Below, one piece after another: positions 13,384-61,741 of a DNA stretch of 64,000 bases. Position 1 is the stretch's first letter; every line of letters begins with the position of its first letter. The notes beneath the pieces are model-generated. The model saw only the letters and a list, made by a program, of their open reading frames with translations. It did no database searches and was not told the origin of the DNA. The stretch comes from a virus (taxonomy: Duplodnaviria; Heunggongvirae; Uroviricota; Caudoviricetes). The position numbers and the translations under genes were made by a program. The stretch lies in IMG/VR virus record IMGVR_UViG_3300028888_000086. One strand, written 5' to 3'.

Positions 13384-13544
13384 AATTTTAAATATATTTT
13401 ATATTTTCAAAATTTTTTAAAAAATATTAATTTTTATACTGACATGTTTTAATTTTTTTATGTCAGTCTTCATATATAGGATTTTTAAGGGATTTAAAGC
13501 GTGTTTTTATAATTTCAGAATAAAAAGGAAATTTTAAAACCCCG

Positions 13545-13560
13545 AAATCCTTATATATGA
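13545..13560 (+). promoter_or_regulatory. conserved promoter-like motif (AAATCCTTATATATGA) driving the tRNA cluster
   Basis: It is a family member of the AAAGCCTTATATATGTA motif, and the first tRNA starts 7 nt downstream. Confidence 0.55.
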
Positions 13561-13566
13561 TTTAAT

Positions 13567-13654
13567 GGAGAGGTGCCGAAGTTGGTCATAACGGCCTAGA
13601 CTTGAAATCTTGTGTGTCTTTATAGACCCGTGGGTTCGAATCCCACCCTCTCCG
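13567..13654 (+). tRNA. tRNA-Ser(UGA), class II with long variable arm
   Basis: Acceptor GGAGAGG/CCTCTCC, D-arm GCCG...CGGC, anticodon loop CTTGAAA, T-arm GTGGGTTCGAATCCCAC. Confidence 0.8.
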
Positions 13655-13678
13655 CTTTCAAAATAAAATAACAAAAAT

Positions 13679-14088
13679 GGCGGCATGTTGGAATTGGTAG
13701 ACAAGGCGGTCTTTTTGCCAATTAGACAAACAAAAGAGAGTGCATAGGTAAGAAATTCCTATGTAGAACCTCTCAAATTCGGTGGAAGTCTCTATGAGAA
13801 AATACCGAGCTAAATCAGATTTAATTCTGTAAATGTGTAGAGAGCAGAAGGGAGGTACCTAAGTTGAGAAAAGCATTGAGTATGACGGTAGTGCGGAGGT
13901 GTCAGCCTCAGGATTGGTTCGACTCCAAAATGCTGAGTTGCAACTTTTTCAATATGGTAATGGTGTGCTCCAGACCACAACAACACAATTAGTCGCCAAG
14001 CGTCTGAGAAAGTTGGCTATGGTAACATAGTGTGGTAGGAAAAACCGCTCCCAATTATGGGGTCCCAGTTCGACTCTGGGTGTCGCTA
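13679..14088 (+). tRNA. tRNA-Leu(UAA) interrupted by a 326-nt group I intron between U34 and A35 (exons 13679-13713 and 14040-14088)
   Basis: 5' exon GGCGGCA TG TTG GAATTGGTAGA CAA G GCGGT CUU. 3' exon AAAA ACCGC, long variable arm TCCCAATTATGGGG, T-arm CCCAGTTCGACTCTGGG, acceptor TGTCGCT (two G.U pairs with GGCGGCA). The intron ends ...GUAGG. Confidence 0.75.
13714..14039 (+). mobile_element. group I intron (family 2) in the tRNA-Leu(UAA) anticodon loop
   Basis: Canonical cyanobacterial/plastid trnL insertion site. The 5' exon ends in U and the intron ends in G. It has internal P7-like pairing UUCGACUCC / UUAGUCGCC, and shares AAUACCGAGCUAA with the AAA+ ATPase intron. Confidence 0.65.
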
Positions 14089-14136
14089 CAAAAGAGGTGA
14101 AAAATCCTCTTTTATTTTTCCGTCTATAAATCCTTA

Positions 14137-14154
14137 AAAGCCTTATATATGTAA
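14137..14154 (+). promoter_or_regulatory. promoter-like motif AAAAGCCTTATATATGTA preceding a ~140-nt structured non-coding region
   Basis: Motif family member. It sits immediately after the hairpin AGAGGTGAAAAATCCTCT plus T-run. Confidence 0.5.
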
Positions 14155-14335
14155 TGGAGATCGAGCTAATAGTTAATTCCGATTTTCCGGGGTAAAGACG
14201 CACCCGGCAACAGAAGTGGTCAAATTTATGAAAAGGGAAAGCCTGAGAATGCACCATTACGTTAGACTGTGCAAAAAACTTGGGCTTTCCTAATTTTTTT
14301 TCAAGACTTTTATGTCTTTTTATTTTTTTTCTTGA
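14155..14335 (+). ncRNA. candidate small RNA (promoter to double terminator)
   Basis: No ORF. Stems CCGGGG...CCCGG, GGAAAGCC...GGGCUUUCC plus U8, then AAGACUUUUAUGUCUU plus U-run. Promoter upstream and next gene's promoter downstream. Confidence 0.4.
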
Positions 14336-14369
14336 GAACCTTATATGTGAATTTTAAATATATATTAAA

Positions 14370-16593: not shown

Positions 16594-16637
16594 ACTTGAA
16601 ATTCTTATATATGATACATACTTAAATTTAATATACT

Positions 16638-18021: not shown

Positions 18022-18045
18022 TACTAATTAAAATCAATTTAAATC

Positions 18046-19592: not shown

Positions 19593-19609
19593 TGTGTCGA
19601 AAAAAAAAG

Positions 19610-19737
19610 AGAAGGTGTCAAAACCTGGGTATATACCCAACCTTCTCAATAGACCTTAAAACCGTCACGGTAAAATATTCTTACCCATTTTAAAGATTAT
19701 GAAACACTCCACATTTATTTCATATATAAGGCTTTGA
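19610..19737 (-). ncRNA. candidate ~110-nt small RNA on the minus strand (promoter at 19721-19737, terminator hairpin GAGAAGGU...ACCUUCUC plus U9)
   Basis: Orphan minus-oriented promoter motif with no ORF downstream (only a 7-codon MGKNILP). Palindromic loop GGGUAUAUACCC. Confidence 0.4.
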
Positions 19738-19763
19738 AGGATTAAAAAAGAATGGGAGATGTT

Positions 19764-22739
19764 TCACTCCACATTCTTTCTAAGATCCATAAGTATGTTA
19801 TCAGTAAACTGCTCAATACTAGAGCTAATATTTTCTGTTTCTTCATTATAGAATCCACATAAAATTTGTTCTGATAATATTCTTTTAGTTCTTATAAAAT
19901 CAAATCTTCTTTTATCCCAAGACCAATTTTCATCAGACTTTAACTGAATTACGACTTGTGGAATATAGACGTTTATCTCTGAAAATTTAGATCCACGTCT
20001 AGCTATTCTCCCAACTAACTGCACATAATCAGCATTAGTCCACGGTAAACTTAAGATTACTATTTTATTACAGCATTTTTGAAGTCCATCAATACCGGTT
20101 CCAATAGGGCTAGATGCAATAATAATATCACAATCTCCACTAATGAATTTATCCTCTAGTATTGAATTTCTATCTTTTACATCAACTTCTCCAGTATATA
20201 TTTCATAGGTAAATCCTTTTTCTTTTACCCACGACTCAATAATTGGAATAGATAACGTACTAATACTATAAATAATAGTTTTAGATTTAATTTCATCTTT
20301 AACTGAATCAAGTTTAATTCTAGTTAAGGCTTTATCAACTGTACTCCATGACATCTTATCTTGACTTATAAGACTGCTTTTAATATCAGTTCCATTAACT
20401 TCATTAAAATATGTATTAGTCTTTATGTCAAAATCAGAATTTCCAAAGATTCTAATACCGTTTTCAAATAACTCATACCTAGCAAGAACTTTATTTTTTA
20501 TAGTCCTGTTTCTAGTTTTGAATTTAGGATTTACACCACTAAGTAATCCCAAGACTGAATGAAGCTCAGTTAGGTCATTCTTAAAAGGTGTTGCTGATAA
20601 TCCTAAGACCTTGAGTTTTGGATTGTGTTTTTGTGCTTCCATTCTCATAATCTTTAGATATCTGTAAGTATTAGACTCTTTTGAATCTTCCATCTTTTTT
20701 GCTCTCTGTATTTCATCAAGTACTATAAAATCAACCATACCAGATTTAACTAGATTCATTATAGGTTCCTCTAAAATATCAGAAGTCCTAAATTTATCAT
20801 AGTTAATCAAGATATAATTAAATTTGTTCTCATCTATAGCATCAAGACAATTTTTATTTCCATTATAATCAATTACTATGCTATCTTTTTTATAGCATTT
20901 CTTTATTTCTCTTTTAACTGTATCTTTAACAGACAAAGGAGAAACATATATAGTAATTCTCATTCTGGAATATCTTGAAGCATACAGAGCACTTAATGTT
21001 TTACCACTACCAACTTCGGACCAGTTTCCAAAATACGGAGTCCTATTTAATTTATAAGCTACGTATTTTTGAAGTAAATCAGGTCTTAATGTATCTGGTA
21101 AACAATATATACAGGTAGTATCAAGATTAAAAACTTCATTGTACTCTCCTAATACAATTTCTCTTATCTCCCACAACCAATCTGAATGTTCAGATTTCTT
21201 TAATGATTTTAATTCTTCGATTGTAATATATAAATTGCTATAAGAGTCATTAATTATCTCTTGCCAAAAATCTTTGACCTTCTTTACTTTAAGTAGATCA
21301 TATAATTCCCCACTTAAAGTAATATTAGCAAGTATTTTTTCAAGAGTAAGCACGGTTTTCATACATCTAGAAATGCCAAATATTTTTTCTCTTTCTGGCA
21401 TCTCATAACCCAGATCCTCAGCTAATCTTCCTATAGTATCTCTTCTGTTCTGAGTATCTATTTCCGTTGATGCTATCTTATCTATAGCACTTCCAGAACA
21501 CTCAAGACCCAAAAGAACTAAATCATCAAAATCAAGATATTCAAAATCAAAAATTGTAATATCCTGAAGTCTTGGATCCAGGTTATATATAGGACCTTCT
21601 TTATATTTTTCTATCAGCTCTTTGAATTTAGGTTCATTTTTATGTACATAGAGAAAATTGTATAATCCAATTTCCTTTTTATTAGAGGGTTTAGGAAGTC
21701 TATTGTGTTTTATACAAAATTCTTCCAATTCTTCATATGTATAGTGGTTAAATCTATCATATTTTTCCCACAGTTCCTTAAATCTAGGTTCATTTTTATG
21801 CTTTCTAAAAAATTGATATAAACCAGTTTCAGTTTCCCCTCTATACTGACTAGGAAGTCTATTATTCTTTTTACAAAATTCTTCCAATTCTTCATACGTA
21901 TAATAATGAATTTTATTATATTTTTTATATAATTCTTTAAATCTTGGTTCATTTTTATGCTTTCTAAAAAATCGATATAAACCACCTTCTTCTTTATATT
22001 CACTACTTGGAAGTCTATTATGTTTTATACAAAATTCTTCCAATTCTTCATACGTATACTTCTTATCAGATTTACCATATTTTTCTATTAATTTCTTAAA
22101 CCTAGGCTCATCTTTATCTCTATGATAAACTAGAAATTGATATAATCTAATTTCTTCTTTATCAGAAGATTTAGGAAGTCTATTGTGTTTTATACAAAAT
22201 TCTTCCAATTCTTCATACGTATACTTCTTATCAGATTTACCATATTTTTCTATTAATTTCTTAAATCTAGGCTCATCTTTATGTATTCTAAGATATTGAT
22301 ATAGACCTTTTTCACTATATTTAGGAAGTCTATTGTGTTTTATACAAAATTCTTCCAATTCTTCGAATGTATTAAAATGATAGAGCCTGTGGAGTTTACC
22401 ATATTTTTCTATCAATTTCTTAAACCTAGGCTCATTTTTATGTATTCTAAGAAATTGATATAAACCAGTTTCCCCTTTATTTTTATTTTGTGGAAGTCTA
22501 TTATTCTTTTTACAAAATTCTTCCAGATCTTCATATATATATTTTTTATGGATTTTACTATAATTTTCCCACAATTCTTTAAATCTTGGTTCATTTTTAT
22601 ATTTCCAAAAAAATCGATATAAACTGCTTTCTTCTCTATACTTTTTTTGTGGAAGTCTATTATTCTTTTTACAAAATTCTTCCAATTCTTCATACGTATA
22701 AATTTTACTTTTGTTTCTTTTTTCTTCTTTGTTTTTCAT
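19764..22739 (-). CDS. SF2 helicase with 9 N-terminal ~45-aa tandem repeats (helicase-associated 'HA'-domain-like)
   Basis: Repeat YTYEELEEFCKKNNRLP...GLYQFL..HKNEPRFKELxEKY occurs 9 times. Helicase motifs GSGKT (I), VLDEIQ (II), GLSATP (III), GTGIDGLQ. Confidence 0.8.
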   Translation of the reverse strand: MKNKEEKRNKSKIYTYEELEEFCKKNNRLPQKKYREESSLYRFFWKYKNEPRFKELWENYSKIHKKYIYEDLEEFCKKNNRLPQNKNKGETGLYQFLRIHKNEPRFKKLIEKYGKLHRLYHFNTFEELEEFCIKHNRLPKYSEKGLYQYLRIHKDEPRFKKLIEKYGKSDKKYTYEELEEFCIKHNRLPKSSDKEEIRLYQFLVYHRDKDEPRFKKLIEKYGKSDKKYTYEELEEFCIKHNRLPSSEYKEEGGLYRFFRKHKNEPRFKELYKKYNKIHYYTYEELEEFCKKNNRLPSQYRGETETGLYQFFRKHKNEPRFKELWEKYDRFNHYTYEELEEFCIKHNRLPKPSNKKEIGLYNFLYVHKNEPKFKELIEKYKEGPIYNLDPRLQDITIFDFEYLDFDDLVLLGLECSGSAIDKIASTEIDTQNRRDTIGRLAEDLGYEMPEREKIFGISRCMKTVLTLEKILANITLSGELYDLLKVKKVKDFWQEIINDSYSNLYITIEELKSLKKSEHSDWLWEIREIVLGEYNEVFNLDTTCIYCLPDTLRPDLLQKYVAYKLNRTPYFGNWSEVGSGKTLSALYASRYSRMRITIYVSPLSVKDTVKREIKKCYKKDSIVIDYNGNKNCLDAIDENKFNYILINYDKFRTSDILEEPIMNLVKSGMVDFIVLDEIQRAKKMEDSKESNTYRYLKIMRMEAQKHNPKLKVLGLSATPFKNDLTELHSVLGLLSGVNPKFKTRNRTIKNKVLARYELFENGIRIFGNSDFDIKTNTYFNEVNGTDIKSSLISQDKMSWSTVDKALTRIKLDSVKDEIKSKTIIYSISTLSIPIIESWVKEKGFTYEIYTGEVDVKDRNSILEDKFISGDCDIIIASSPIGTGIDGLQKCCNKIVILSLPWTNADYVQLVGRIARRGSKFSEINVYIPQVVIQLKSDENWSWDKRRFDFIRTKRILSEQILCGFYNEETENISSSIEQFTDNILMDLRKNVE

Positions 22740-22816
22740 AATTTTTTTAATTTTAATTGTTAATACTTGAAAATAAAAACAAGTAAATAGGATTTTATTA
22801 CCTATTTACTTCTCTA

Positions 22817-22833
22817 CATATATAAGGCTTTTA
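22817..22833 (-). promoter_or_regulatory. promoter motif (minus orientation) for the 991-aa helicase gene, followed by 5'-UTR hairpin GTAAATAGG...CCTATTTAC
   Basis: ACATATATAAGGCTTTT; divergent with the plus-strand motif at 22887-22904. Confidence 0.55.
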
Positions 22834-22923
22834 AGAATTATTAAATGGAATTTCTGAAATGCTTAAAACACGCTTAAAACGGTTAAAAATTCTTATATAT
22901 GTAAATATTAAATTTTATTAATT

Positions 22924-23313: not shown

Positions 23314-23417
23314 AAACTAAGGGATAGAAGTTAAGTTTCTATCTCTTTTTATTTTCTTAAAAACCTTATTTATGATAAATTAGAATAAAAAAATAAATAT
23401 AAATATAAATAAATAAT

Positions 23418-25756: not shown

Positions 25757-25843
25757 AATATTTTATTTTTAATAATTTACATATATTAGGTTTTGAAATA
25801 CTTATAATTGAATATAAAATAAACAACTTAATCGTCAATAGTT

Positions 25844-26475: not shown

Positions 26476-27018
26476 TTATATACTAGCTATTATAGTATAA
26501 TCATCAGAAAATTCTATAATTAAATTTTGTAAACACTCATTTAAAGACTTAGTAAAATTTAATAAGGTTTCATATGTTCCCCAACCATTAGGAGAGTTAA
26601 ATTTTTCTAGATCCGTTTTATTATCTTTTAAATATTTATAACCAATTTCTATACCATCAATATATTTTTGATCTACATATTTAAAATTTAATACATCAGG
26701 ATGCCATAAATAATCATACAATGTCTTATCATTTATTGGAACATTTCTAGCCATTTGACCTAGATTATGTGTTATATTACCACTCCAAATAGTATTAGTC
26801 TCATATTCTACTTCATTAATATTACTTAAGTCTATATTAGGAAAATAAGCTTTAACCTCATCTATTGTTTTTAATTCTACAACTTCTCCATCCTTCCTTA
26901 CATATACGCCGGTTCCTTTATGTTTTACTGGTTTAGTTGAAATAATATCTAAATCTAAACTCATATATTTAATTGATTTATAAACTTTTCTTTTCCATGC
27001 TCTGTATTTAATTCCCAT
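26476..27018 (-). CDS. hypothetical protein (likely starts at the internal Met MSLDLDI, ~26961)
   Basis: ORF downstream of the Thg1-like gene. Confidence 0.5.
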   Translation of the reverse strand: MGIKYRAWKRKVYKSIKYMSLDLDIISTKPVKHKGTGVYVRKDGEVVELKTIDEVKAYFPNIDLSNINEVEYETNTIWSGNITHNLGQMARNVPINDKTLYDYLWHPDVLNFKYVDQKYIDGIEIGYKYLKDNKTDLEKFNSPNGWGTYETLLNFTKSLNECLQNLIIEFSDDYTIIASI

Positions 27019-27758: not shown

Positions 27759-27760
27759 AA

Positions 27761-27973: not shown

Positions 27974-28032
27974 AATAATTTATATATTCAATTATAAGAT
28001 TTTTAAAACCTTATATATGTAAAATTTTAATT

Positions 28033-31293: not shown

Positions 31294-31643
31294 ATTATAT
31301 TATATTAAATTTATTTACATTATTTTCACAGACGGGCTGGCCTTGTGCAAGCCCAACCTAATAAATTACTGATTTTTATATTTATTTTATTTCTTTTTTT
31401 CATATATAGGATTTTTAAGGGATAATAAGTGTGTTTTTTACATTTCATGAGAAAATTTTAGGGATGTTACAAAGAATACTATTAAATATGTAAAAATGAG
31501 AAAAAATGTAAAATATCTCATAAATAACACAGGGGTCTATTCAAGAGTAAAAAAGTCTGGAAATTTTTTCTGTAACGAAGTGGAAAGAAAAAATTTGGGC
31601 AACTCCTAGGCTGCCCCTCTGTCTTTAAAAATGGGAAATTTTC

Positions 31644-31934: not shown

Positions 31935-32154
31935 TTTACTTAGATTTAATTTAATTTAATTTCAATAATAAGGATTTGAAGAATTATTAAAAAAGAAGGA
32001 AGTTTCACCATCCCGGCTACTTCTTCCTAAAAATGTCATACAAAAACAACTGAATTATTGAGAATCATGCTTCCTCACATATATAAGGATTTCAGCTCTC
32101 TTTATTTTTAATTTATTTTTTACCATCTTTAAGTATTTTAATTTTTTCATAGTA

Positions 32155-33000: not shown

Positions 33001-33069
33001 TATTTATTTTATATTATCATTTATAAGAGTTTTAAATTCCTTATATATGAAAATTAAAAAAATATTAAT

Positions 33070-34821: not shown

Positions 34822-34863
34822 ATTTTAATTTGTTATTGTTATTATATATAAGGGTTTGAGAAC

Positions 34864-35865: not shown

Positions 35866-36012
35866 ATATTTTAATTATTTTAGTATTTTCATATATAAGA
35901 TTAGAGAGCATTTTAAAGAGCATTTTTTATATTTTAAAAATTAAGCCTGAAATCCTTAATTATGAAATGAATAAATTAATTATAATTAACAAACTTAAAA
36001 AAAATAAATGTT

Positions 36013-39143: not shown

Positions 39144-39199
39144 TATTTTTTACAGAGGTTGTGGTTCCTCTTTTAGTTAATATTTGATTACGATACAAA

Positions 39200-39900
39200 A
39201 AAAAATAAACAGATATATTAATTTACCTGTTTACATATATAAGGCTTTCAAGGATTATTAAACGGTCGAAAATTTAAAGCCAAAAAAAATCAATTAAAAT
39301 ACTTAAATTTATAATTGAATATCAGGCTTTTATTACTACGACCGAAATTAATAAAACACACTTTATAAACATTAAAAATCTTATAAATAGAAAAAAAGAA
39401 CCCAGCTTTAATGCCGAGAAAGAAATTTAGGTTTTCTTATTATATTAGAAGTTATTGTTTTCTTAATTTAATTTTGACTTCACTTATTATTGATTTATAG
39501 TTATATCGTTTTGTGAATTTAATATAATCTAAATCTTTTATTCTTAGTCTAGGTAATATCATAACAACACCTCCTTTCAAATTTTTACCTAGGGTTCTTT
39601 TACCAGCAATGTTATATTTTGCTGGTTTTTTTTGTTAATAATTTCGAAAATAAAAATAAACAAGTATTTAATTTACCTGTTTACATATATAAGGTTTTGA
39701 AGGATTATTAAACGGTCGACACTTTAAAGCCAAAAATCAATTAAATACTTAGATCTATAATTGAATATTCTCGGCTTTTATTATTACGACCGAAATTAAT
39801 AAAACACACTTTATAAACATTAAAAATCTTATAAATAGAAAAAAAAGAAAGAACCCAAGATTAAACTTAGGAAAGAAAGAATAATTTGCTTTCTTATCTA
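39200..39900. repeat. two tandem ~250-bp repeat copies (~39200-39445 and ~39648-39900; period ~450 bp). Each holds a minus-oriented promoter plus TSS hairpin and a conserved structured element (nested stems CGGTCG...CGACCG / AAAGCC...GGCTTT) with an identical 60-nt block
   Basis: Direct sequence comparison: cgaccgaaattaataaaacacactttataaacattaaaaatcttataaatagaaaaaaa is identical in both copies. Confidence 0.7.
39500..39610 (-). CDS. small ORF (~35 aa, MILPRLRIKDLDYIKFTKRYNYK...) with the only canonical Shine-Dalgarno (GAAAGGAGGTG) seen in the window
   Basis: Downstream of the repeat-copy-2 promoter on the minus strand. The SD sits 7 nt before the ATG. Confidence 0.35.
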
Positions 39901-41107: not shown

Positions 41108-41306
41108 AATTTATCCTTTCTTTTTTTGTTAATTTAATTCTTGAAAATAAAATAAATGTTATCATAATTTTACCTATAATAACATTTACTACTATGTGTT
41201 CCGACTTCGTTCCGTAAACTTCACTAGTCTTCACATATATAAGGCTTTCAAGAATTATTAAATGGAAAAATAAAAAGAGAGAATTTTATTTTCCCTCTTT
41301 ATTTTT

Positions 41307-43033: not shown

Positions 43034-43162
43034 TTATATTTATTGTTTAATCTCATTTATAAGGTTTTTCAGTGTTATATTTTTGCTTTTCATTTAACTT
43101 ATTTTCCTTATATTTGGACTAGATAATAAAGTCTAGTCTTTGTATATTAATATTAAAGTAAA

Positions 43163-45650: not shown

Positions 45651-45894
45651 TGTTAGCCCCTCTATATAGTGATATATAGAGAAAATCCTGAATATGCTGG
45701 AAACTCCTAAAGCTTTATCTACCAAAGTGTGAAAATGATAAAGATATTACAATGGACAATCAGCAGGGATAACTCTGTAAAAAGAGAAGCCCTCAACGAC
45801 TACCAAGGGACATCTAAAATAAAATTAGATGAAGGTATAGTCTAAACCCAAAATAAAATATCTCGAAAGGGAGGGTATCAATTGTATCACACAA
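45651..45894 (+). mobile_element. group I intron 1 of polA (family 1, no ORF; boundaries +/-30 nt)
   Basis: R CCUCAACGACUACC (~45790-45803) and S GAUGAAGGUAUAGUCUAAACCC (~45829-45850) on the plus strand. These are reverse complements of the rpoB/rpoC intron elements. Confidence 0.6.
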
Positions 45895-48850: not shown

Positions 48851-49178
48851 GAGTTTTAATGTTTTTAATTTTAATCCCAGAACAATAACTGGATCAAGTA
48901 AGTTAATTTATTGTAATTGTGATTCCATAATGTTTATAGTGAAGGGCTTTCTCAGTTAGCTAATCTAATACTCACCCTTCAAACATCATGAATAATTTGA
49001 AACTTGAGAGAACGAACAAAAGGAGTACGCAAAAATACACACTCTTCTCATTGTCTCCTCTCACTTATAAGATTCAAACCCCGTCATAAGCGCATTTTTA
49101 TCATTTCAGGCATTATAAAACTTAGAATACGCTTATAGACTTTTTATTTCAAGCGATATTTAGTTTTTAATATTTGAA

Positions 49179-50885
49179 ATGAAGTTTTTGCGCTTTATAA
49201 GTTTGTTTAGCTTTATATATGAGAGAAAAAACTTAATATATATGATAGATAAAGAAACTTTTACTAATGAGATAGAAAAATTAGAAACAACGAAAGAAAA
49301 GGGAGATTATTTTTTAGAAGTATTATCTAAAGAGTTTTTTCCAGAAGAGGAGATTACTTTCTTAGATGGCTCAGGTGATGGAGGAATTGATGCTTATTTT
49401 ACTTGTATCGATGAAAATATAAGTAAATGGTCTATAATACAATCTAAACATGGAAGTTCTTATAAAGGTACTGATTCCATTTGTTGTGATTTTTCTAAAA
49501 TATTTATACACCTAGAAGATAAAGAGTATTATGGAAAAGATAATGTATTTTTATATTTAAGAGATTTTATAAAAGAATCTAGTGAAAAAATAATTATACT
49601 CTATCTTTTAACAGATAATAAAATAAGTGACTCTGAATTAAATTCATTCAAAACAATAAAAAATATATTTTCTGAACGATATAATATTAAATTTGAAGTT
49701 GAAAATTTATATCCTGATCTATTATATGAAAAAACATCTACAGAAAAGATATATAATATTGAATTACCTGGAAATTTTATAAAAGATGATGGATCTGGGG
49801 AACTAGTAGGAAAAGTAAAAATTAGTGATTTATTTAATTTCATGAAGAATTTTAAATCACTAGCTGGCGATATTAAATTATTATATAAATCAAATATTCG
49901 TCTTTACTTATCAAATAAACTAGCAAAAGCCATAGCTAGTACACTTAGTAATGATCCTGATAAATTTTTTGAATATAATAATGGAATAACAATTCTTACT
50001 AATGGAATAAATTATAATGAAAAAGGAGTATTAATTTTATGTAATCCTGATTGTAACAATGGATGTCAAACATCATTGACTATCTATAAATATATTGAAA
50101 ATTCTAAAATAGTTCCTAATTCTAATTTATGTGTTACTATAATTGATATTTCTAAAAAATCAAAAGAAGAAATAGTAAAAATAACAGAATGTAGAAATAA
50201 ACAAACAGCTGTAAAATCTGTTGGAAGTATATTTGTTCTGGATAAAAGAGTTGAGGAAATAAAAAACATACTTAAAAATGATTATGGAAAAATATTACAG
50301 ACTAAAAAAGGAGAATATAGTCCTAAAAAGATCGATTTTGTAGATTTAATGAGTATGTGTTTTTGTATAATTGATGGTACTCCTGGTATAGCTAAATTAA
50401 AAAATGCCGAACACTATAATTCTAAAACAGGTGATGATTTTATAACAAAATTAAAAGATGATAGAGAATTATTATTATTGAGTTATAGATTAGCGGAGAT
50501 TTGTGAATTACTTAATAAAAGATCATATAAATATCGAGTAGAGAGTTTAAGATATGCTCAAATATCAATTCTTTACACAATACTAGAAAAAGCTGTTGGA
50601 TCTGATAAAGGAAAAATGTTAAAAATACTCAATGACAATGATTTATATGATTATTTTATGAAATCAGCTACTGGATTAATCAGAATATATACAGATATTA
50701 AATCAAGGACAAAGGCAAAGTTTTTGTTTGATTATGAGAATGTAGATAATTTAGAAAGATTGAGTAAGTTATTAGATTTAAATACATCTCCAAAATTAAA
50801 TGAATTAATATCTAGTTGGTTTGAATTTACTTATAAAGAAAAAACTGATATTATAGATAAAGTTGAAAAAATATTAAAAAGTTAA
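49179..50885 (+). CDS. AIPR-like abortive-infection / PD-(D/E)xK nuclease-family protein (true start probably the Met of MIDKETF at ~49242, downstream of the promoter motif at 49208-49224)
   Basis: The N-terminus has GSGDGGIDAYFTCIDEN...IIQSKH (D..E.K nuclease-like signature) followed by a long alpha-helical body, matching AIPR architecture. Confidence 0.5.
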   Translation: MKFLRFISLFSFIYERKNLIYMIDKETFTNEIEKLETTKEKGDYFLEVLSKEFFPEEEITFLDGSGDGGIDAYFTCIDENISKWSIIQSKHGSSYKGTDSICCDFSKIFIHLEDKEYYGKDNVFLYLRDFIKESSEKIIILYLLTDNKISDSELNSFKTIKNIFSERYNIKFEVENLYPDLLYEKTSTEKIYNIELPGNFIKDDGSGELVGKVKISDLFNFMKNFKSLAGDIKLLYKSNIRLYLSNKLAKAIASTLSNDPDKFFEYNNGITILTNGINYNEKGVLILCNPDCNNGCQTSLTIYKYIENSKIVPNSNLCVTIIDISKKSKEEIVKITECRNKQTAVKSVGSIFVLDKRVEEIKNILKNDYGKILQTKKGEYSPKKIDFVDLMSMCFCIIDGTPGIAKLKNAEHYNSKTGDDFITKLKDDRELLLLSYRLAEICELLNKRSYKYRVESLRYAQISILYTILEKAVGSDKGKMLKILNDNDLYDYFMKSATGLIRIYTDIKSRTKAKFLFDYENVDNLERLSKLLDLNTSPKLNELISSWFEFTYKEKTDIIDKVEKILKS

Positions 50886-50944
50886 GAGAGCTGAAATATG
50901 TTCTCTTTTTCTTTTTCTTTTTATTTTTCCTTCTAATATTCCTT

Positions 50945-50962
50945 GAAAGCCTTATATATGTA
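50945..50962 (+). promoter_or_regulatory. promoter motif AAAGCCTTATATATGTA plus TSS hairpin AAACAGG...CTTGTTT plus downstream module TTTATTTTCAAAATATTAACAAT
   Basis: The same composite occurs at 52002-52078, 22745-22833(-), 41130-41252(-), 39180-39252(-). Confidence 0.55.
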
Positions 50963-51042
50963 AACAGGTAAATTAAATACTTGTTTATTCTTTTTTATTT
51001 TCAAAATATTAACAATTAAAAACCTCGCAATGTATAGGTTAA

Positions 51043-51381
51043 TTGTATATTACTATGAGATTTATGTATTTCGTAGAAGGTGGATTTGATTGTCCTAGTA
51101 TTTACAAATCACTCAAAGATTTATCAACCTGGATTGAACGTGTTTGTGATCATGAGAAAACAAACTTTACTGCAATGCTTGATATAGATGATTATGAATG
51201 TGGGATTTATCTTGTGACACATATTGACTTCAGTGTCAAGAGAAACATAAGGTGTTTGAAAAATCACTTTTACAAGCCGGGACTATATCAACAAGTCGAA
51301 AGTGTTCTTTTAAGGTTTGGTGATGGTGGTGATACGTATAAGATAACCAGGGCAGTCTTATCTGAAATAAACAAGGGATGA
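51043..51381 (+). CDS. hypothetical protein
   Basis: 112 aa; terminator hairpin GGGATGAAACACTCCC at ~51376-51392. Confidence 0.55.
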   Translation: MYITMRFMYFVEGGFDCPSIYKSLKDLSTWIERVCDHEKTNFTAMLDIDDYECGIYLVTHIDFSVKRNIRCLKNHFYKPGLYQQVESVLLRFGDGGDTYKITRAVLSEINKG

Positions 51382-51416
51382 AACACTCCCTTTTATTTTT
51401 CCGTCTATAAAACGTT

Positions 51417-51600
51417 GAAAGCCTTATATATGTACAATAAGTACAAAAAATTCAGTTGGTGACGCCTGGAACTCACTGCAAATAAAAACGAGAGAAGGAA
51501 AATAGGGCATTTTATAAGAGTTGAGATAGATATTCTCAACTCTTTTTTTCGGTCGTATATTTAGAATTTAATTTTCGCTTATATATTATTTCTTTTAAGC
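51417..51600 (+). ncRNA. candidate small RNA unit: promoter (51417-51434), ~110 nt without a credible ORF, terminator GAGTTGAGATAGATATTCTCAACTC plus T7, then a second long hairpin TTCGGTCG...CGACCG plus T6
   Basis: Only a 10-codon ORF starts inside the promoter motif. Two consecutive terminator structures follow. Confidence 0.35.
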
Positions 51601-51679
51601 GTTATTTTAATTCTTATATTTCGACCGTTTTTTATTCTTCAAAGCCTTATATATGTATTAACAATTTAAATTATTAACT

Positions 51680-51949: not shown

Positions 51950-52080
51950 GAATAAGGAGGGTTGAAATATACCCTTTTGTTTTTTCCGTCCATTAATCCT
52001 TAAAAGCTTTATATATGTAAGCAGGTAAAAAAATACTTGTTTATTTTTATTTTCAAAGTTTAACAATAAAACAAGAAACT

Positions 52081-52257: not shown

Positions 52258-52418
52258 TCCAACATTTTTTTATCCCTTCAAACCCTTATATATGTGAAGG
52301 CTAATAAAGTCGGAACAATAAGTAAATGTTATTGTAAGTAAAACTATAATAATATTTATTTTTATTTTTCGAGAATTAAATTAACAAGAATTATTAACAA
52401 ATTAAAATAGAATAAATT

Positions 52419-55847: not shown

Positions 55848-55863
55848 TCAAAATATAAGGGAA

Positions 55864-55895
55864 GGGAGTGAAATATCTCCCTTTTTATTTTTTTT
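55864..55895 (+). terminator. hairpin GGGAGTGAAATATCTCCC plus T-run
   Basis: Perfect inverted repeat after the giant gene, immediately followed by promoter motif 55901-55916. Confidence 0.65.
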
Positions 55896-55932
55896 TCTTT
55901 AAACTCTTATATGTAATATAAATCTAAAAAGT

Positions 55933-57220: not shown

Positions 57221-57253
57221 AAAGAAGTAGAGGGATTTGTTTCCCTCTATTTT

Positions 57254-59087: not shown

Positions 59088-59341
59088 ATTTTATTTATTT
59101 TTCTATAAATAAGGCTTTGAAATTAGATTTTTACGTTTTATAAGTTCGATTAGCTTTATATATGTGAAAACCTAGTTTATTTTTTAATTAATCTATATAG
59201 TGGTTATAATATTATTCAAATAAATGCATTAAGAAGTAGTGATGATAAAAATGCAAAATGTAGACAAATAAAAGAAAATCTAATTATGAATTATTAAAAC
59301 CTTAAAACTCTTATATATGTAAAAATTAAAATTATAAAATT

Positions 59342-59749
59342 ATGGGAGTAATATATTTAAATATTGGATTAGCAATTTTTAATTTTATTTTAGCATGTAT
59401 TATTATTGCACTTGGGTTTTTTAATAATAAATCTTCTTTTGTATATGCAGGTATATTTAATTTAGTTGTTGCTTTATTTATCTCTTATATTACTTATTCT
59501 ACATATAATAGAAATGTAATGACTAAAATAAAAGAAGAAGATATCGAATCTTATTATAAATACTTGGTAGAAAAAATAAAACAGGATACCACCACATTGA
59601 ATAAAACGGATTTATTATTTTCAATAGAACCTGAAGTAGATGAAATAAATAAAATTATTGAAATTAATAGAAATAATTATGATTCTTGGTGGGATGGATA
59701 TCAGTATTCAGAAAAAATTGGAAATTTAAAAAAGATTAGATTATATTAA
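59342..59749 (+). CDS. 2-TM membrane protein, paralog family A
   Basis: Same architecture and C-terminal motif as 34417-34821; promoter at 59305-59322. Confidence 0.55.
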   Translation: MGVIYLNIGLAIFNFILACIIIALGFFNNKSSFVYAGIFNLVVALFISYITYSTYNRNVMTKIKEEDIESYYKYLVEKIKQDTTTLNKTDLLFSIEPEVDEINKIIEINRNNYDSWWDGYQYSEKIGNLKKIRLY

Positions 59750-59850
59750 AAGCCTATATAGAAAAAGAAGTAAATACGGAAAATTAAATCCGTATTTATT
59801 TTTTATACATACATTCATGTGATTCAATAGCTAATCCTTTTTCTTTATAC

Positions 59851-60759
59851 TCATATTTGAATATTATTAAATAAAGATAATGCTTCAGATAGCAAGTAAA
59901 CAAAATTCTGTTTATTGCCAACATAACCTTCGTAAATTCTTCTGCTATTAAGGAAATGCCAACCATCATCTTCACCTAAAGTAAGAATATTAAAATACCT
60001 CTTATTATTAGATACAATAGCGATTCCCCCATTACTATCAAGAGCATATACTCTAACAATATTACTATCCCTATATACTCTTGTAATTGGAAAATTAGTA
60101 TACATTCCATCTTGACCACCAACTTCTCTCCATATTTTTGACATATCGCTGTTAATAGTACAATCAAGCTCTAAATCTTCAGATATATCTTGTTTTGTGG
60201 CCATTTCTTTTCTATAATTAAAGACTTCTTCTCGATTTTTATCATAATCTTTAATATAAAATAATGGAATTTCAATAATGTTAGTCTTTTCAATTTTTGC
60301 CATAAACTTTTATTTATTATTCAATTTATACATATCCTCAGGTGCTTCTAATGCCAATCCTTTTTCAATTAATCCTCTATAATCAAAGTAATGTGCGTTA
60401 AGCCAATTAAATAAAGTTATATATTCTTCTGTTGGACACTCTGTTTCATCATCCCACAGCCCTTGACGATGATATCTGATCTGTACTTGTCCACTCCAGA
60501 TATTCCAAACATATTTTTTTGATAATTCTTTTTTCTCCTCATCTGTCATTGATGATAAAGATCGGAGATAAGGCTTGACATCTTCTATTGTATAAGTTAG
60601 TCCAAAATCATCCATAATATCACAATGTCCATCTTCTTCATCAATAAACAGGCATTGAATTATATGATACTGTCTGACTGTACCACAATATATTTTTATT
60701 TTATAAGGAAACCTCGCACATAGGTCTTTTAGTAATAGTTCCTTTTCTTCTTGTGTCAT
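59851..60759 (-). CDS. two hypothetical proteins (59851-60303, 60310-60759)
   Basis: 150- and 149-aa ORFs. Confidence 0.5.
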
Positions 60760-60766
60760 AATTAAA

Positions 60767-61207
60767 TTAACTTAAAATTAATCTTATTGATAATAGTTCA
60801 ACTTGTTTATAAATTCCACAAAGTTTTAGAACATGTTGAAGTTCATGGACATACCTAATATGAATACCATCTACATGACAATACTGACAACTTATCTCAA
60901 CAAAGAAATTAGAAGGGTCGTCCATATATACACTAACAAACATTCTTTCGTCTGGTGTTTCTTGATGACTCCACACATAGGTATTATCACAACAGTCTAT
61001 CTCTTTAATAGACGTAATGCTTTTAGGTATTCTGTTTTTCTTAAACCCATTCTTTTCAAGGATTTCTGGAATGAGTGGTACTGGTTGGAAATTAAATATA
61101 TCATCATCAGATAAAGAGAAAGTTTCTTCTGTAACTTGAAAATAATATTTCTTTCCCTATGCTTCCCAACTATACCAACCCCCAATCATTAACTCTTCTT
61201 TTTTCAT
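60767..61207 (-). pseudogene. 147-codon gene with a single in-frame TAG (~61157-61159) between MKKEELMIGGWYSWEA and GKKYYFQVTEETF...; could be a pseudogene, a sequencing error or programmed readthrough
   Basis: One frame stays open from ATG 61207 to stop 60767 except for one amber. The track splits it into 60767-60976 (GTG start) and an out-of-frame 60997-61185. Confidence 0.4.
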
Positions 61208-61213
61208 CTTATT

Positions 61214-61696
61214 TTATATTAATAATATATTTTTAATTTTTAATGCTTTTTCAATTGGAATTAATACACTTTTTGGTATACGTGGTTCACTTAAATACCA
61301 ACATGCGCATTTTATAGGTTCATCATAATCCCAATCTTTTCCAACATAAGCACAATCTTTTCTAGGAGATCCAGCACAACATTTTTCATCACCTTCTTTG
61401 TTTTCATATCCACAAGAAAACTCACGAAGTTCATACAATTCTCCTACAGGTGTGAGTTTTTTATCATGTTTTTCAATTAACTCTTTTGTATAATTATATG
61501 GTTCACCAATTAATGTTTTTGGATGTGGCTTATTATACCAAGAGAGACATCTATTATCGTGAGGAGCTCCAGGTATAAACGCATACTCTACATATCTGCC
61601 CTTTTCATCTTCACGTAAATAAACATATTTATCTAATTCGTGATATAGAGTAGCCTCTAATTCTAATTTTTCTAGATCTTCTTTAGTTGGTATCAT
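61214..61696 (-). CDS. Cys-rich hypothetical protein
   Basis: 160 aa; CxxC-like pairs (CCAGSPRKDC, CACW). Confidence 0.5.
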   Translation of the reverse strand: MIPTKEDLEKLELEATLYHELDKYVYLREDEKGRYVEYAFIPGAPHDNRCLSWYNKPHPKTLIGEPYNYTKELIEKHDKKLTPVGELYELREFSCGYENKEGDEKCCAGSPRKDCAYVGKDWDYDEPIKCACWYLSEPRIPKSVLIPIEKALKIKNILLI

Positions 61697-61741
61697 ATTA
61701 TATTATATTTTCATAGTTAAGGGTTTGACTAAAAAAAAATA

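What the first reader, a model, noticed from the sequence alone, without database searches (positions are those of the whole stretch)
13471..61728. Genome-wide promoter-like motif AAAGCCTTATATATGTA in terminator-promoter cassettes, no Shine-Dalgarno sequences, and a second conserved 5'-UTR module
More than 25 copies of (A)AAGCCTTATATATGTA or close variants lie 10-25 nt upstream of start codons on the coding strand. Examples: 14338, 22887, 28005, 33035, 50945, 51417, 51641, 52002, 52279, 55901, 59153 and 59305 on the plus strand; 13471, 19721, 22817, 31401, 32077, 34842, 35890, 39233, 39683, 41232, 59105 and 61711 on the minus strand. They usually follow a perfect hairpin plus T-run, e.g. GGGAGTGAAATATCTCCC-T9. 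None of the genes has a GGAGG-like ribosome-binding site. In at least five cases the motif is followed by a TSS hairpin and the module TTTATTTT(T)ATTTTCAARnnTTAACAAT, which may be a second promoter class. This suggests transcription by the virus's own RNAP, with leaderless or short-leader translation.
Basis: seen in the sequence. Interest (0 to 1): 0.7.

Follow-up and report, generated by a model that had tools for sequence, protein, structure and literature searches.

The report
Conserved promoter of jumbo gut phages
The repeated AAAGCCTTATATATGTA motif is real and is best read as the main early-type promoter of a Bacteroides-infecting "Jug" jumbo phage that encodes its own RNA polymerase, while the missing Shine-Dalgarno sequences simply reflect its Bacteroidota host.

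Summary
The motif is real. It gives 16 hits within 2 mismatches against 0.26 expected. A 23-nt matrix (CCTTnAAAnCCTTATATATGtA) finds 39 sites against about 3 by chance. Of these, 38 are intergenic and point at the downstream gene, tRNA or ORF-less RNA. The window is a 27.5% GC jumbo phage of the published Jug family (hosts Bacteroides/Phocaeicola). It encodes an intron-interrupted multisubunit RNA polymerase whose operon sits behind one copy of the motif. The same motif is abundant in 200-400 kb relatives. Two copies lie 7-8 nt before tRNA genes, so it is a promoter (P1), and transcription must start within about 7 nt of its final G. Leaders are therefore short, not absent. Shine-Dalgarno sequences are depleted and A is enriched at -3 and -12..-14, which is the Bacteroidota norm. 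P1 is not the canonical host promoter (TAnnTTTG). Which polymerase reads it is unresolved. I favour phage-supplied machinery, as in phiKZ/AR9. Against that, the full P1 cassette also occurs in RNAP-less prophage-like islands of Bacteroidaceae chromosomes. "Usually after a terminator" is overstated (9 of 37). The second module is real (6 copies) but lineage-specific. This is a new member of a known kind, not reported in the Jug paper.

The parts
756..778 (-). P1 site, 15.1 bits; 28 nt from G0 (the motif's final G) to the ATG of the 232-aa ORF; divergent pair with 780-802
780..802 (+). P1 site, 16.4 bits (CCTTATATTTG variant); 19 nt to ATG at 819
13468..13490 (-). P1 site, 24.7 bits, variant with AAAACACG box 29 nt upstream; heads the RNA polymerase operon (87-nt leader)
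   Evidence: the same architecture before the RNAP operon of relatives
13540..13562 (+). P1 site, 22.8 bits; its G is 7 nt before tRNA-Ser
14132..14154 (+). P1 site, 31.4 bits; drives an ORF-less, terminator-ended RNA of about 170 nt
14330..14352 (+). P1 site, 21.7 bits; 20 nt to ATG at 14370
16594..16616 (+). P1 site, 24.6 bits; 24 nt to ATG at 16638
19718..19740 (-). P1 site, 32.3 bits; drives an ORF-less RNA of about 120 nt ending at a terminator
22814..22836 (-). P1 site, 28.5 bits; followed by hairpin and module 2, then the 991-aa helicase gene
22882..22904 (+). P1 site, 18.0 bits; 22 nt to ATG at 22924
23355..23377 (+). P1 site, 24.5 bits; 43 nt to ATG
25777..25799 (-). P1 site, 21.4 bits; 23 nt to ATG; overlapping divergent pair
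25791..25813 (+). P1 site, 14.5 bits; 33 nt to ATG
27986..28008 (-). P1 site, 17.2 bits; 15 nt to ATG; overlapping divergent pair
28000..28022 (+). P1 site, 24.4 bits; 13 nt to ATG (shortest spacing)
31398..31420 (-). P1 site, 26.1 bits, AAAACACA-box variant; 107-nt leader to the 683-aa SF2-helicase-like gene
31960..31982 (-). P1 site, 22.0 bits; 28 nt to ATG
32075..32097 (-). P1 site, 22.8 bits; drives a short ORF-less RNA
33015..33037 (-). P1 site, 19.6 bits; 17 nt to ATG; overlapping divergent pair
33030..33052 (+). P1 site, 21.3 bits; 20 nt to ATG
34840..34862 (-). P1 site, 20.0 bits; 21 nt to ATG
35887..35909 (-). P1 site, 13.8 bits; 24 nt to ATG of the IMPDH-like gene
35945..35967 (+). 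P1 site, 20.6 bits; 48 nt to ATG
39231..39253 (-). P1 site, 32.4 bits; followed by a 5' hairpin and a degenerate module 2
39370..39392 (+). P1 variant, 16.7 bits (CTTATAAATAG, AAAACACA box)
39681..39703 (-). P1 site, 31.1 bits; followed by hairpin and module 2
39818..39840 (+). P1 variant, 16.7 bits; duplicate of 39370-39392
41231..41253 (-). P1 site, 29.4 bits; 126-nt leader with hairpin and module 2
43051..43073 (-). P1 site, 21.4 bits; 20 nt to ATG
50941..50963 (+). P1 site, 32.4 bits; hairpin starts exactly at the final G; module 2 follows
51413..51435 (+). P1 site, 26.2 bits; drives an ORF-less RNA of about 115 nt (fold z = -3.1) ending at terminator 51516-51544
51636..51658 (+). P1 site, 28.3 bits; 24 nt to ATG
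51998..52020 (+). P1 site, 25.2 bits; hairpin at the G, then module 2
52275..52297 (+). P1 site, 30.0 bits; 124-nt leader with hairpin and module 2 before the 1142-aa helicase-methyltransferase gene
55896..55918 (+). P1 site, 16.8 bits; 17 nt to ATG
59101..59123 (-). P1 site, 20.2 bits; 16 nt to ATG
59300..59322 (+). P1 site, 28.2 bits; 22 nt to ATG
62178..62200 (-). P1 site, 21.1 bits; its G is 8 nt before the first tRNA (Tyr) of a four-tRNA array
43097..43119 (+). Weak P1 variant (CCTTATATTTG) before the 838-aa ORF; below the PWM threshold
49202..49224 (+). Weak P1 variant (GCTTTATATATG, TGCGCTTTATAA box); lies just inside the longest ORF call (ATG 49179) of the AIPR-like gene
59145..59167 (+).
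61709..61731 (-).
14090..14113 (+). Terminator hairpin with loop TGAAAAAT plus T-run, 38 nt before the G of the next P1
23319..23347 (+). Terminator hairpin before P1 at 23355
41274..41300 (-). Terminator hairpin before P1 at 41231
50884..50907 (+). Terminator hairpin, loop TGAAATAT
51373..51392 (+). Terminator hairpin, loop TGAAACAC
51955..51978 (+). Terminator hairpin, loop TGAAATAT
55859..55886 (+).
62229..62257 (-). Terminator hairpin before the tRNA-array P1
19755..19770 (-). Hairpin with loop TGAAACAT plus T-run before P1 at 19718
50960..50988 (+). 5' hairpin plus U-run starting at the P1 G (11-bp stem with G-U pairs)
52017..52044 (+). 5' hairpin plus U-run starting at the P1 G
39656..39684 (-). 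5' hairpin plus U-run (identical to 50960-50988)
39205..39234 (-). 5' hairpin plus U-run; pairing kept by a G-U/G-C swap
22780..22812 (-). Leader hairpin plus U-run (different stem sequence)
41151..41190 (-). Leader hairpin plus U-run (third stem type)
52324..52357 (+). Leader hairpin plus U-run (third stem type)
50998..51015 (+). Module 2: TTTTCAAAATATTAACAA
52050..52066 (+). Module 2: TTTTCAAAGTTTAACAA; 14 nt to ATG
52366..52387 (+). Module 2: TTTTCGAGAATTAAATTAACAA (a second TTAACAA 6 nt later)
41126..41147 (-). Module 2: TTTTCAAGAATTAAATTAACAA; 18 nt to ATG
39632..39650 (-). Module 2: TTTTCGAAATTATTAACAA
22757..22773 (-). Module 2: TTTTCAAGTATTAACAA; 17 nt to ATG
2380..13383 (-). RNA polymerase operon behind P1 at 13468-13490: 361-aa protein, beta' (three exons, group I introns, HNH ORF), 70-aa and 115-aa ORFs, beta (473 + 619 aa around an intron), 212-aa protein
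13567..14089 (+). tRNA-Ser (13567-13655) and an intron-containing tRNA (13679-14089) transcribed from P1 at 13540-13562
61774..62172 (-). tRNA array Tyr-Gly-Ser-Pro transcribed from P1 at 62178-62200

Best explanation
The motif is the core of a promoter of about 35 nt (P1). It has a -30 box (CCG/ACG), then CCTTnAAA, then GCCTTATATATG(T/A)A. A Jug-type jumbo phage of Bacteroidaceae uses it at about 0.6 sites per kb. Shown: P1 sits, correctly oriented, in front of protein operons (including the phage's own multisubunit RNA polymerase operon), tRNA genes and several ORF-less terminator-ended RNAs, and it is shared by 200-400 kb relatives. Inferred: transcription starts between the final G and about 7 nt downstream. 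That gives short (about 6-28 nt), A-rich, Shine-Dalgarno-less leaders, which are translated the way Bacteroidota translate their own mRNAs. Inferred with less certainty: P1 is an early-type promoter read by transcription machinery that the phage brings with it (a virion-delivered RNA polymerase or specificity factor), as with the vRNAP early promoters of phiKZ/AR9-like phages. It differs from the canonical host promoter, and it controls the RNAP operon itself. Intrinsic terminators, seven of them with a shared TGAAAYAY loop, separate some units. In a subset, a terminator-like hairpin in the leader (a likely attenuator or 5' stabiliser) is followed by a TTAACAA element that may be a second promoter or a translation enhancer.
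For: Motif statistics and placement. P1 lies 7-8 nt before tRNA 5' ends and before ORF-less RNAs ending in terminators. Family-wide use: the exact 16-mer occurs in more than 120 stretches of IMG/VR contigs of 200-400 kb. These share 65-72% nt identity in RNAP genes and carry 367 sites in 952 kb. Spacing from the final G to the ATG peaks at 20-29 nt in the window and in relatives. A P1 variant with an AAAACRCG box at fixed spacing precedes the RNAP operon or the 683-aa gene in three lineages. The phage encodes beta/beta', and its best AR9 match is the non-virion RNAP subunit g089. In phiKZ/AR9 the non-virion RNAP genes are early genes behind a conserved AT-rich early motif that can be found bioinformatically (PMC7598289, PMC5312081). 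Not the host type: the canonical -7 element TAHHTTTG is not enriched upstream of genes (2 against 1.3 in the window, 9 against 10.3 in relatives), whereas TAHHTATG is (12 against 1.6, 37 against 12.6). The RNAP-less Bacteroides phage B40-8 has 15 canonical elements, 1 TAHHTATG and no P1-like site. Sigma-70-type sites are not enriched and terminators are (43 against 12.5). SD depletion and A at -3 and -12..-14: matching PMC6847099 and PMC7366714.
Against: No transcription start site data exist for this phage. Only one RNAP set was seen. A second, virion set was not found in what I could sample, and the Jug paper treats RpoC as one marker gene. P1 matches 5 of the 6 nearly invariant host -7 positions and has a box at about the host -33 position, so it has host-like geometry. 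The complete P1 cassette, with the -30 box, an upstream terminator and a conserved leader, heads a small-ORF/DUF3871/Sak recombinase/nuclease operon in at least 15 Bacteroidaceae chromosomal islands that have host-like GC and no RNAP. This is most simply explained if a host polymerase can read P1. P1 density is far higher than the number of early promoters in AR9 (41 per 251 kb).
Confidence: 0.55

Rival explanations
1. P1 is read by the host RNA polymerase (the primary sigma or another host sigma), in a T7-like scheme. Host RNAP transcribes P1 units, including the phage RNAP operon, tRNAs and small RNAs. The phage RNAP then transcribes later genes from other signals, possibly the TAACAA element.
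For: The 8-mer ending at the final G is TATATATG against the host TAHHTTTG, a 5 of 6 match at nearly invariant positions. There is a box 29-30 nt upstream of the G, near the host -33 position. Leader lengths resemble the B. thetaiotaomicron mode of 23 nt. Only one RNAP set was seen. The full P1 cassette occurs in RNAP-less prophage-like islands of Bacteroidaceae, where DUF3871 proteins diverge to 36% identity but the promoter is invariant. A 'Bacteroides phage promoter' that is constitutive and very strong in uninfected cells is known (P_BfP1E6), but I could not obtain its sequence.
Against: Host position T-7 is nearly invariant (PMC6847099), but P1 has A 86%, G 12% and T 2% there. Canonical host -7 elements are not enriched in 64 kb of window plus 952 kb of relatives, whereas the host-dependent phage B40-8 is full of them and has no P1. 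P1 carries 22.6 bits of conservation against 11.7 needed, which is typical of dedicated phage polymerase promoters. No TSS entry for the B. thetaiotaomicron DUF3871 gene was found in the held supplements of the dRNA-seq map; this is weak evidence because the files were cut.
Confidence: 0.3
2. P1 is read by the RNA polymerase encoded in this window (a middle class). The first molecules come from a few immediate-early host-type promoters elsewhere in the genome, from read-through, or from packaging of the same enzyme.
For: The RNAP operon and the 683-aa gene carry a distinct P1 sub-variant (CCTATATATG or CTAATWAWTG plus an AAAACRCG box) in all lineages examined. This could mean different recognition or timing. 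The very high P1 density suggests a general-purpose promoter rather than a small early set.
Against: The sub-variant shares the same three boxes at the same spacing as the bulk sites, so there is no clear second specificity. No host-type promoters were seen in the sampled sequence. This does not explain the chromosomal islands unless they respond to infection.
Confidence: 0.1
3. Module 2 (leader hairpin plus U-run, then TTTTCRAR..TTAACAA) is a second promoter class placed behind a terminator, so that some genes are served by two polymerases or two time classes, as in AR9 genes that carry both early and late promoters.
For: There are six copies, all behind P1. TAACAA is enriched at -36..-7 from the ATG, and only on the sense strand: window 11 against 1.0 (reverse complement 1), relatives 38 against 7.1 (reverse complement 1), with a peak 10-24 nt before the ATG. 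It also occurs before genes without P1. The AR9 late promoter core is AACA. G-U pairs and compensatory swaps show that the hairpins act in sense-strand RNA, as terminators or attenuators would.
Against: The full module is absent from 952 kb of relatives. The spacing between TTTTCRAR and TTAACAA varies from 2 to 7 nt. The AR9 pattern AACA-N6-T-A/G is not met. TAACAA keeps a fixed distance to the ATG even when it lies directly after P1 with no hairpin, which fits an A/C-rich translation-enhancing leader equally well.
Confidence: 0.35
4. The motif is not a promoter. It would instead be a dispersed repeat, a processing site or a translation signal.
For: The motif, the terminator and the -30 box travel together as a cassette, which could suggest a duplicated or mobile element. 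The motif contains ATG, often ATG-TAA.
Against: It precedes tRNAs and non-coding RNAs. All 38 intergenic sites have the right orientation. It persists at orthologous positions while the flanks diverge.
Confidence: 0.03

Closest known systems
Early (virion-RNAP) promoters of phiKZ/AR9-type jumbo phages, e.g. AR9 AAATATATATTAT-(6N)-G+1
   Same: A highly conserved AT-rich element with an alternating TATATAT core. It can be found by motif over-representation, lies upstream of early-type operons that include the non-virion-like RNAP genes, and varies from phage group to phage group (PMC7598289, PMC5312081).
   Different: P1 has G+C-containing flanks (CCTT..GCC) and a -30 box, and is many times denser. 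No second (virion) RNAP set was shown here. Beta and beta' are unsplit after intron removal, unlike the split subunits of phiKZ/AR9. The start site is unmapped.
phiKZ non-virion RNAP late promoter T(-3)A(-2)T(-1)G(+1)
   Same: P1 ends in an almost invariant (T)ATG. In four paralogous cassettes a stable RNA hairpin begins exactly at that G, which fits a start at G.
   Different: The phiKZ late promoter has no conserved upstream sequence. P1 has about 20 conserved upstream positions. The resemblance may be coincidental.
Bacteroidota primary-sigma promoters (-33 TTTG / -7 TAnnTTTG)
   Same: Overall geometry. An 8-mer TAnnT.TG is followed by a short distance to the start, there is an upstream box about 21 nt before it, and 5' UTRs are short.
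   Different: A instead of the nearly invariant T in TTTG. The upstream box is CCG/ACG, not TTTG. Conservation is far stronger and longer. The canonical element is not enriched in this phage.
Dedicated phage promoters read by phage polymerases or phage sigmas (T7 class II/III, SPO1 gp28 middle, T4 late TATAAATA)
   Same: Many near-identical copies with roughly twofold excess information content (the excess information of T7 promoters is from my own knowledge).
   Different: No single-subunit RNAP or recognisable sigma was identified here. The 361-aa first gene of the RNAP operon is all-helical with no significant structural match.
Shine-Dalgarno-independent initiation in Bacteroidota (A at -3, -6, -11 to -15)
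   Same: SD depletion and A peaks at -3 (0.77) and -12..-14 (0.62-0.70).
   Different: Nothing notable. The phage simply follows its host.

Membership tests
phiKZ/AR9-type vRNAP early promoter | Highly conserved AT-rich element of about 10 nt or more, over-represented upstream of operons | tested here: met
phiKZ/AR9-type vRNAP early promoter | Precedes the genes of the non-virion RNAP | tested here: met
   P1 at 13468-13490(-) heads the beta/beta' operon. The best AR9 match of beta-C is the non-virion subunit g089.
phiKZ/AR9-type vRNAP early promoter | The genome encodes a second, virion-packaged beta/beta' set | tested here: inconclusive
   Only one NADFDGD-type beta' was seen in the window plus 952 kb of relatives. 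That sample is biased toward P1-rich regions. No whole genome was available.
phiKZ/AR9-type vRNAP early promoter | Start site about 6 nt after the element; transcription independent of host RNAP and of protein synthesis | not testable with these tools
   Needs 5'-end mapping and inhibitor experiments.
phiKZ/AR9-type multisubunit RNAP | Beta and beta' each split into two polypeptides | tested here: not met
   Relatives encode a single beta of 1,050-1,060 aa. The window's breaks are group I introns. In L243 beta' is also interrupted by an intron with an ORF.
phiKZ/AR9-type multisubunit RNAP | A fifth, promoter-specificity subunit (phiKZ gp68 / AR9 gp226 homologue) | tested here: inconclusive
   The conserved 361-aa first gene of the operon is a candidate by position only. 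Its AF2 model (pLDDT 68) has no significant PDB match.
Bacteroidota sigma-ABfr promoter | -7 element TAnnTTTG (T-8, T-7, T-6 and G-5 nearly invariant) | tested here: not met
   P1 has A (86%) at the T-7 position. The canonical element is not enriched. The B40-8 control is enriched for it.
Bacteroidota sigma-ABfr promoter | -33 element TTTG, 19-21 nt upstream | tested here: not met
   The box at that position is CCG/ACG. This element is weak even in host promoters.
Leaderless mRNA | Transcript starts at or within a few nt of the start codon | tested here: not met
   tRNA 5' ends lie 7-8 nt after the final G, so the start is within that interval. The ATG lies 13-28 nt after the G in the short-leader class.
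Archaeal/eukaryal-type TATA box with BRE | Start about 25 nt downstream of the TATA element | tested here: not met
   Such a start would fall inside the tRNAs at 13567 and 62172.
Intrinsic (hairpin plus U-run) terminators | G+C-containing stem-loop followed by a T-run at gene ends | tested here: met
   43 found against 12.5 expected in 13001-64000.
Jug (jumbo gut) phages, PMC12880540 | 360-402 kb gut phages, 27-30% GC, RpoC, frequent group I introns and HNH genes, Bacteroides/Phocaeicola hosts | tested here: met
   Window GC is 27.5%. Relatives are 200-400 kb gut contigs. Introns and HNH. No sequence from the paper was available for a direct comparison.

The most novel reading that the evidence does not exclude
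The Jug promoter cassette found in Bacteroidaceae chromosomal islands (terminator, -30 box, CCTTCAAAGCCTTATATATGTAA, conserved leader, then small ORF, DUF3871, Sak recombinase and nuclease, next to an integrase or a candidate defence ATPase) is not read by the host. It would be a sensor wired to the jumbo phage's own transcription machinery. The island would be a satellite or an infection-triggered defence or recombination module that switches on only when a Jug phage brings in the polymerase that recognises P1.
Probability: 0.2. Interest if true: 0.8.

Novelty: new member of a known kind. Interest (0 to 1): 0.45.

Why it matters
Jug phages are reported to make up about 1% of human gut metagenome reads, yet the paper describing them never mentions promoters. 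A defined promoter of about 35 nt makes their transcription programme testable. It gives a way to predict operons, small RNAs and tRNA units. It gives an assay substrate for asking whether these phages, like phiKZ/AR9, transcribe independently of the host. It gives a marker for finding relatives. If the host polymerase reads P1, it is an unusually strong, portable non-canonical Bacteroides promoter. If it does not, the chromosomal islands that carry it are candidates for phage-triggered elements.

Tried and rejected
1. Megablast of 12 kb against cultured phages found nothing. The only protein-level relatives of beta are AR9/PBS1, Staphylococcus and Listeria jumbo phages at about 26% identity.

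2. I looked for a second RNAP set in four ways. A regex for the NADFDGD motif in six-frame translations found only the orthologous beta'. The neighbourhoods of three paralogues in a 379,862-bp NCBI contig showed no RNA_pol domains, and no DNA could be fetched. The supplements of the Jug paper and preprint were not held or held no RNAP terms.

4. The 683-aa gene linked to the RNAP operon in relatives is a multicopy SF2 helicase fold. This does not help identify the polymerase that reads P1.

5. The AR9 late pattern AACA-N6-T-A/G does not fit the TTAACAA sites.

6. Rfam at gathering thresholds found only tRNAs. The weak alpha_tmRNA hit at 14108-14225 (26.6 bits) was rejected as noise.

7. I rejected the TATA-box/BRE (archaeal-like) and leaderless readings on tRNA spacing.

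8. The genome-contig scan mostly returned single chance hits in unrelated taxa.

9. I could not obtain the P_BfP1E6 sequence. PMC5576361 is not held, no supplements were held, and no paper prints the motif. BLAST of the island promoter against cultured phages gave only chance hits.

Full report
**What the window is.** The 64-kb window is 27.5% G+C and densely coded, and it carries five to six tRNA genes. On the minus strand at 2380-13383 lies an operon for a multisubunit RNA polymerase. The 619-aa ORF has Pfam Rpb2 domain 6, and the 393-aa ORF has Rpb1 domain 2. The only relatives of beta among cultured phages are AR9/PBS1, Staphylococcus and Listeria jumbo phages, at about 26% identity. The AR9 match is g089, which is annotated as a non-virion RNAP subunit.

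In metagenome proteins the beta homologues are mostly single polypeptides of about 1,055 aa on contigs of up to 430 kb. The window's 473 + 619 aa split is therefore caused by an intron. Beta' is interrupted by a group I intron that Rfam recognises (10845-11101, 69 bits). A second, HNH-bearing insertion separates NA from DFDGD in the catalytic motif.

Those phages are 360-402 kb, their group Beta has 27% GC, and their hosts are Bacteroides/Phocaeicola (PMC12880540). That paper does not contain the word 'promoter'. No paper in the searchable library prints the motif.

**The observation.** The 16-mer occurs 16 times within 2 mismatches, against 0.26 expected. Conservation extends from about -31 to +3 relative to the final G (G0). 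There is a C-G/A at -30/-29, then CCTT-n-AAA, then (G)CCTTATATATG(T/A)A.

- A 23-nt matrix finds 39 sites of at least 10 bits, against 3.2 in shuffles.
- 38 of these lie in the 13% of the window that is intergenic, and every one points at the next feature on its strand.
- The sites carry about 22.6 bits, against 11.7 needed to specify them.
- Nineteen of 37 sites have 30 nt or less between G0 and the next feature (mode 13-28 nt). The rest have longer leaders or no ORF at all.
- About 18 sites form divergent pairs 30-90 bp apart.
- Only 9 of 37 have a terminator-like hairpin 15-90 nt upstream, against 2.2 by chance.
- Seven terminators share the loop TGAAAYAY on different, covarying stems.

**Why it is a promoter, and where transcription starts.** Two sites sit 7 and 8 nt before the mature 5' ends of tRNA-Ser and of a four-tRNA array. 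The signal therefore cannot be translational, and the start must lie no more than about 7 nt after G0. The strongest copies drive ORF-less stretches that end in terminators, which are candidate small RNAs.

The motif itself contains ATG. Bacteroidota avoid AUG near start codons, so a start at or after G0 is expected; this is an inference. In four paralogous cassettes an 11-bp RNA hairpin begins exactly at G0. That fits a start at G, as in the phiKZ late TATG(+1). A start about 5 nt downstream, as in host promoters, is equally possible. Either way the leaders are short rather than absent.

**Family-wide conservation.** The exact 16-mer hits more than 120 stretches of IMG/VR contigs, mostly 200-400 kb gut contigs. 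These share 65-72% nucleotide identity with the window in the RNAP genes and in the 683-aa gene. They contain 367 matrix sites in 952 kb, though they were selected through one seed each. The G0-to-ATG spacing is the same as in the window.

Upstream of 24 distinct orthologues of the 683-aa gene (41-49% protein identity), a P1 variant lies about 100 nt before the ATG in most of them. It persists in otherwise diverged sequence. The RNAP operon keeps a variant with an AAAACRCG box 29-32 nt upstream of G0 in three lineages: the window, the Alpha-type loci, and a relative whose beta is 55% identical. In that distant relative the CTTATATATG core is retained but the flanks differ, with poly-C runs. 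Ten kb beyond the window's right end there are 11 more sites.

**Translation.** Only 2 of 77 genes have an SD-like tetramer at -20..-4, against 5.7 +/- 2.3 expected. A is enriched at -3 (0.77) and at -12..-14 (0.62-0.70). This is the documented Bacteroidota pattern (PMC6847099, PMC7366714) and agrees with the reported hosts. It needs no virus-specific explanation.

**Which polymerase reads P1.** The case for phage-supplied machinery:

- In phiKZ/AR9-type phages, a conserved AT-rich early motif that can be found bioinformatically precedes early operons, including the non-virion RNAP genes. A virion-delivered RNAP reads it (PMC7598289, PMC5312081). P1 precedes the RNAP operon here.
- P1 differs from the host -7 element TAHHTTTG at a nearly invariant T (A 86%, T 2%).
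- Canonical host elements are not enriched upstream of genes in the window (2 against 1.3) or in relatives (9 against 10.3).
- By contrast, B40-8, a Bacteroides phage without an RNAP, has 15 canonical elements, one TAHHTATG and no P1-like site in 7.06 kb of intergenic DNA.

The case against:

- I found only one beta/beta' set, but my sample is biased toward P1-rich regions and no complete genome was available.
- P1 has host-like geometry.
- A scan of 185,579 species' genomes turned up at least 15 Bacteroidaceae/Bacteroidales contigs with host-like G+C (38-51%) and no similarity to Jug DNA. They carry the full 23-nt consensus (seven bases more than the query), the -30 box, an upstream terminator and a conserved leader. 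Downstream are a 60-aa ORF, DUF3871 (E = 7.5e-108), a Sak single-strand-annealing protein and a PD-(D/E)XK nuclease.
- The DUF3871 proteins diverge to 36% identity while the promoter stays invariant.
- Neighbours of one such island include a PADLOC PDC-S27 ATPase, what looks like a tRNA gene, and IspG. In B. thetaiotaomicron a DUF3871 gene sits next to a tyrosine recombinase.

These islands have no RNAP of their own. Either a host polymerase can read P1, or the islands are wired to respond to Jug transcription. I therefore keep 'phage-supplied machinery' as the best reading at moderate confidence and give the host-RNAP reading about 0.3.

**The second module.** Six leaders carry a stable hairpin plus U-run followed by TTTTCRAR-N2-7-TTAACAA. 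A seventh is degenerate. There are three unrelated stem sequences, and pairing is kept through G-U pairs and G-U/G-C swaps. The hairpins therefore act in the sense-strand RNA, as attenuators or terminators or as 5' stabilisers.

The full module is absent from 952 kb of relatives. Its TAACAA core, however, is enriched in a strand-specific way 10-24 nt before start codons. The counts are 11 against 1.0 in the window and 38 against 7.1 in relatives, with the reverse complement at 1 in each. TAACAA also occurs before genes without P1.

Two readings remain. It may be a second promoter class, by analogy with the AR9 AACA late promoters and with AR9 genes that have both classes. Or it may be an A/C-rich translation-enhancing leader element. 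The AR9 spacing rule is not met.

**Verdict.** The finding is a real, family-wide promoter. [quoted passage not shown] The SD observation is ordinary for the host phylum. The leaderless idea is not supported. The open and more interesting questions are which polymerase reads P1 and why the same cassette sits in Bacteroidaceae chromosomal islands.

Noticed in passing
genome loci L252, L263, L265, L267, L276, L287 (site at 1895, minus strand), L292, L312, L319, L330, L348, L353, L359, L365: Bacteroidaceae/Bacteroidales contigs with host-like GC (38-51%) carry the complete Jug P1 cassette. It is followed by a conserved leader (TAATCAACAATATAAGAG...), a 60-aa ORF, DUF3871, a Sak recombinase and a PD-(D/E)XK nuclease. 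Neighbours include a PDC-S27 ATPase (PADLOC candidate defence protein), what looks like a tRNA gene, and IspG. The promoter is invariant while DUF3871 diverges to 36% identity.
   Followed up: partly
window 4886-5145(-), 9245-10715(-), 10845-11101(-): Introns interrupt the RNAP genes. 10845-11101 is an Rfam group I intron (69 bits). The HNH-ORF insertion splits the catalytic NA|DFDGD motif of beta'. The third splits beta, which is a single ~1,055-aa protein in relatives. Frequent introns are already reported for Jug phages.
   Followed up: partly
window 13679-14089(+): ARAGORN with the intron option predicts a tRNA (called Phe-GAA, long variable arm) with a 326-nt intron in the anticodon loop. 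It lies directly after tRNA-Ser and is co-transcribed from the P1 at 13540-13562.
   Followed up: partly
window 14151-~14330(+), ~19600-19721(-), 51432-~51550(+), ~31985-32078(-): The strongest P1 copies drive ORF-less transcripts that end in terminators, so these are candidate phage small RNAs. Fold z-scores are -2.1, -1.1, -3.1 and +0.5. A conserved RNA of about 80 nt of this kind follows the strongest P1 in many relatives (e.g. L001 169-260).
   Followed up: partly
window 14090-14113, 50884-50907, 51373-51392, 51955-51978, 55859-55886 (+); 19755-19770, 40123-40142 (-): Seven terminator-type hairpins share an 8-nt loop TGAAAYAY on different, covarying stems. This suggests a specific recognition feature or common descent of a terminator-promoter cassette.
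   Followed up: partly
window 29242-31293(-): The 683-aa ORF belongs to a large multicopy family. 5,269 protein clusters match at E below 1e-3, and three paralogues sit in one 379,862-bp contig. The AF2 model (pLDDT 81) has an SF2 helicase fold (Brr2, HSV-1 origin-binding protein, RecQ-like). Walker A is unusual (PGCGYT). One copy lies immediately upstream of the RNAP operon in relatives.
   Followed up: partly
window ~13500, 22860, 31430, 39370, 39820 (also 35920, 49200, 59140): An AAAACRCGCTT / AAGCGTGTTTT box sits at fixed spacing (G about 29 nt upstream of G0) in a P1 subclass, often between divergent promoters. It is conserved before the RNAP operon in three lineages. It could be a regulator site or a -35-like element.
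   Followed up: partly
window 39132-40150: A tandem duplication of about 450 bp. Each copy carries a strong P1, the 5' hairpin, module 2 and an oppositely oriented weak P1 variant.
   Followed up: no
window 26961-27758(-), 2380-3018(-); L245 3618-4584; L247 8741-9250: A set of RNA-repair and tRNA-related genes: Thg1-like tRNA-His guanylyltransferase and an RNA-ligase-like protein in the window, with NUDIX, Tpt1 (PTS_2-RNA) and PNK3P just outside it.
   Followed up: no
L243 2607-2703, 3961-4143, 15326-15441; L044: In more distant relatives, runs of C or G (7-9 nt) abut the P1 core, including a palindromic pair of cores around GTGGGGG. GGGGGG is about 59-fold over-represented in P1-less upstream regions of the IMG/VR relatives (loci L001-L120).
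   Followed up: no
window 49179-50885(+), 47228-48850(-): An AIPR (abortive-infection-type) protein gene and a 540-aa HNH homing-endonuclease-like gene lie in a stretch with long, structured intergenic regions (45680-45995, 48851-49178). The first of these looks intron-like.
   Followed up: no
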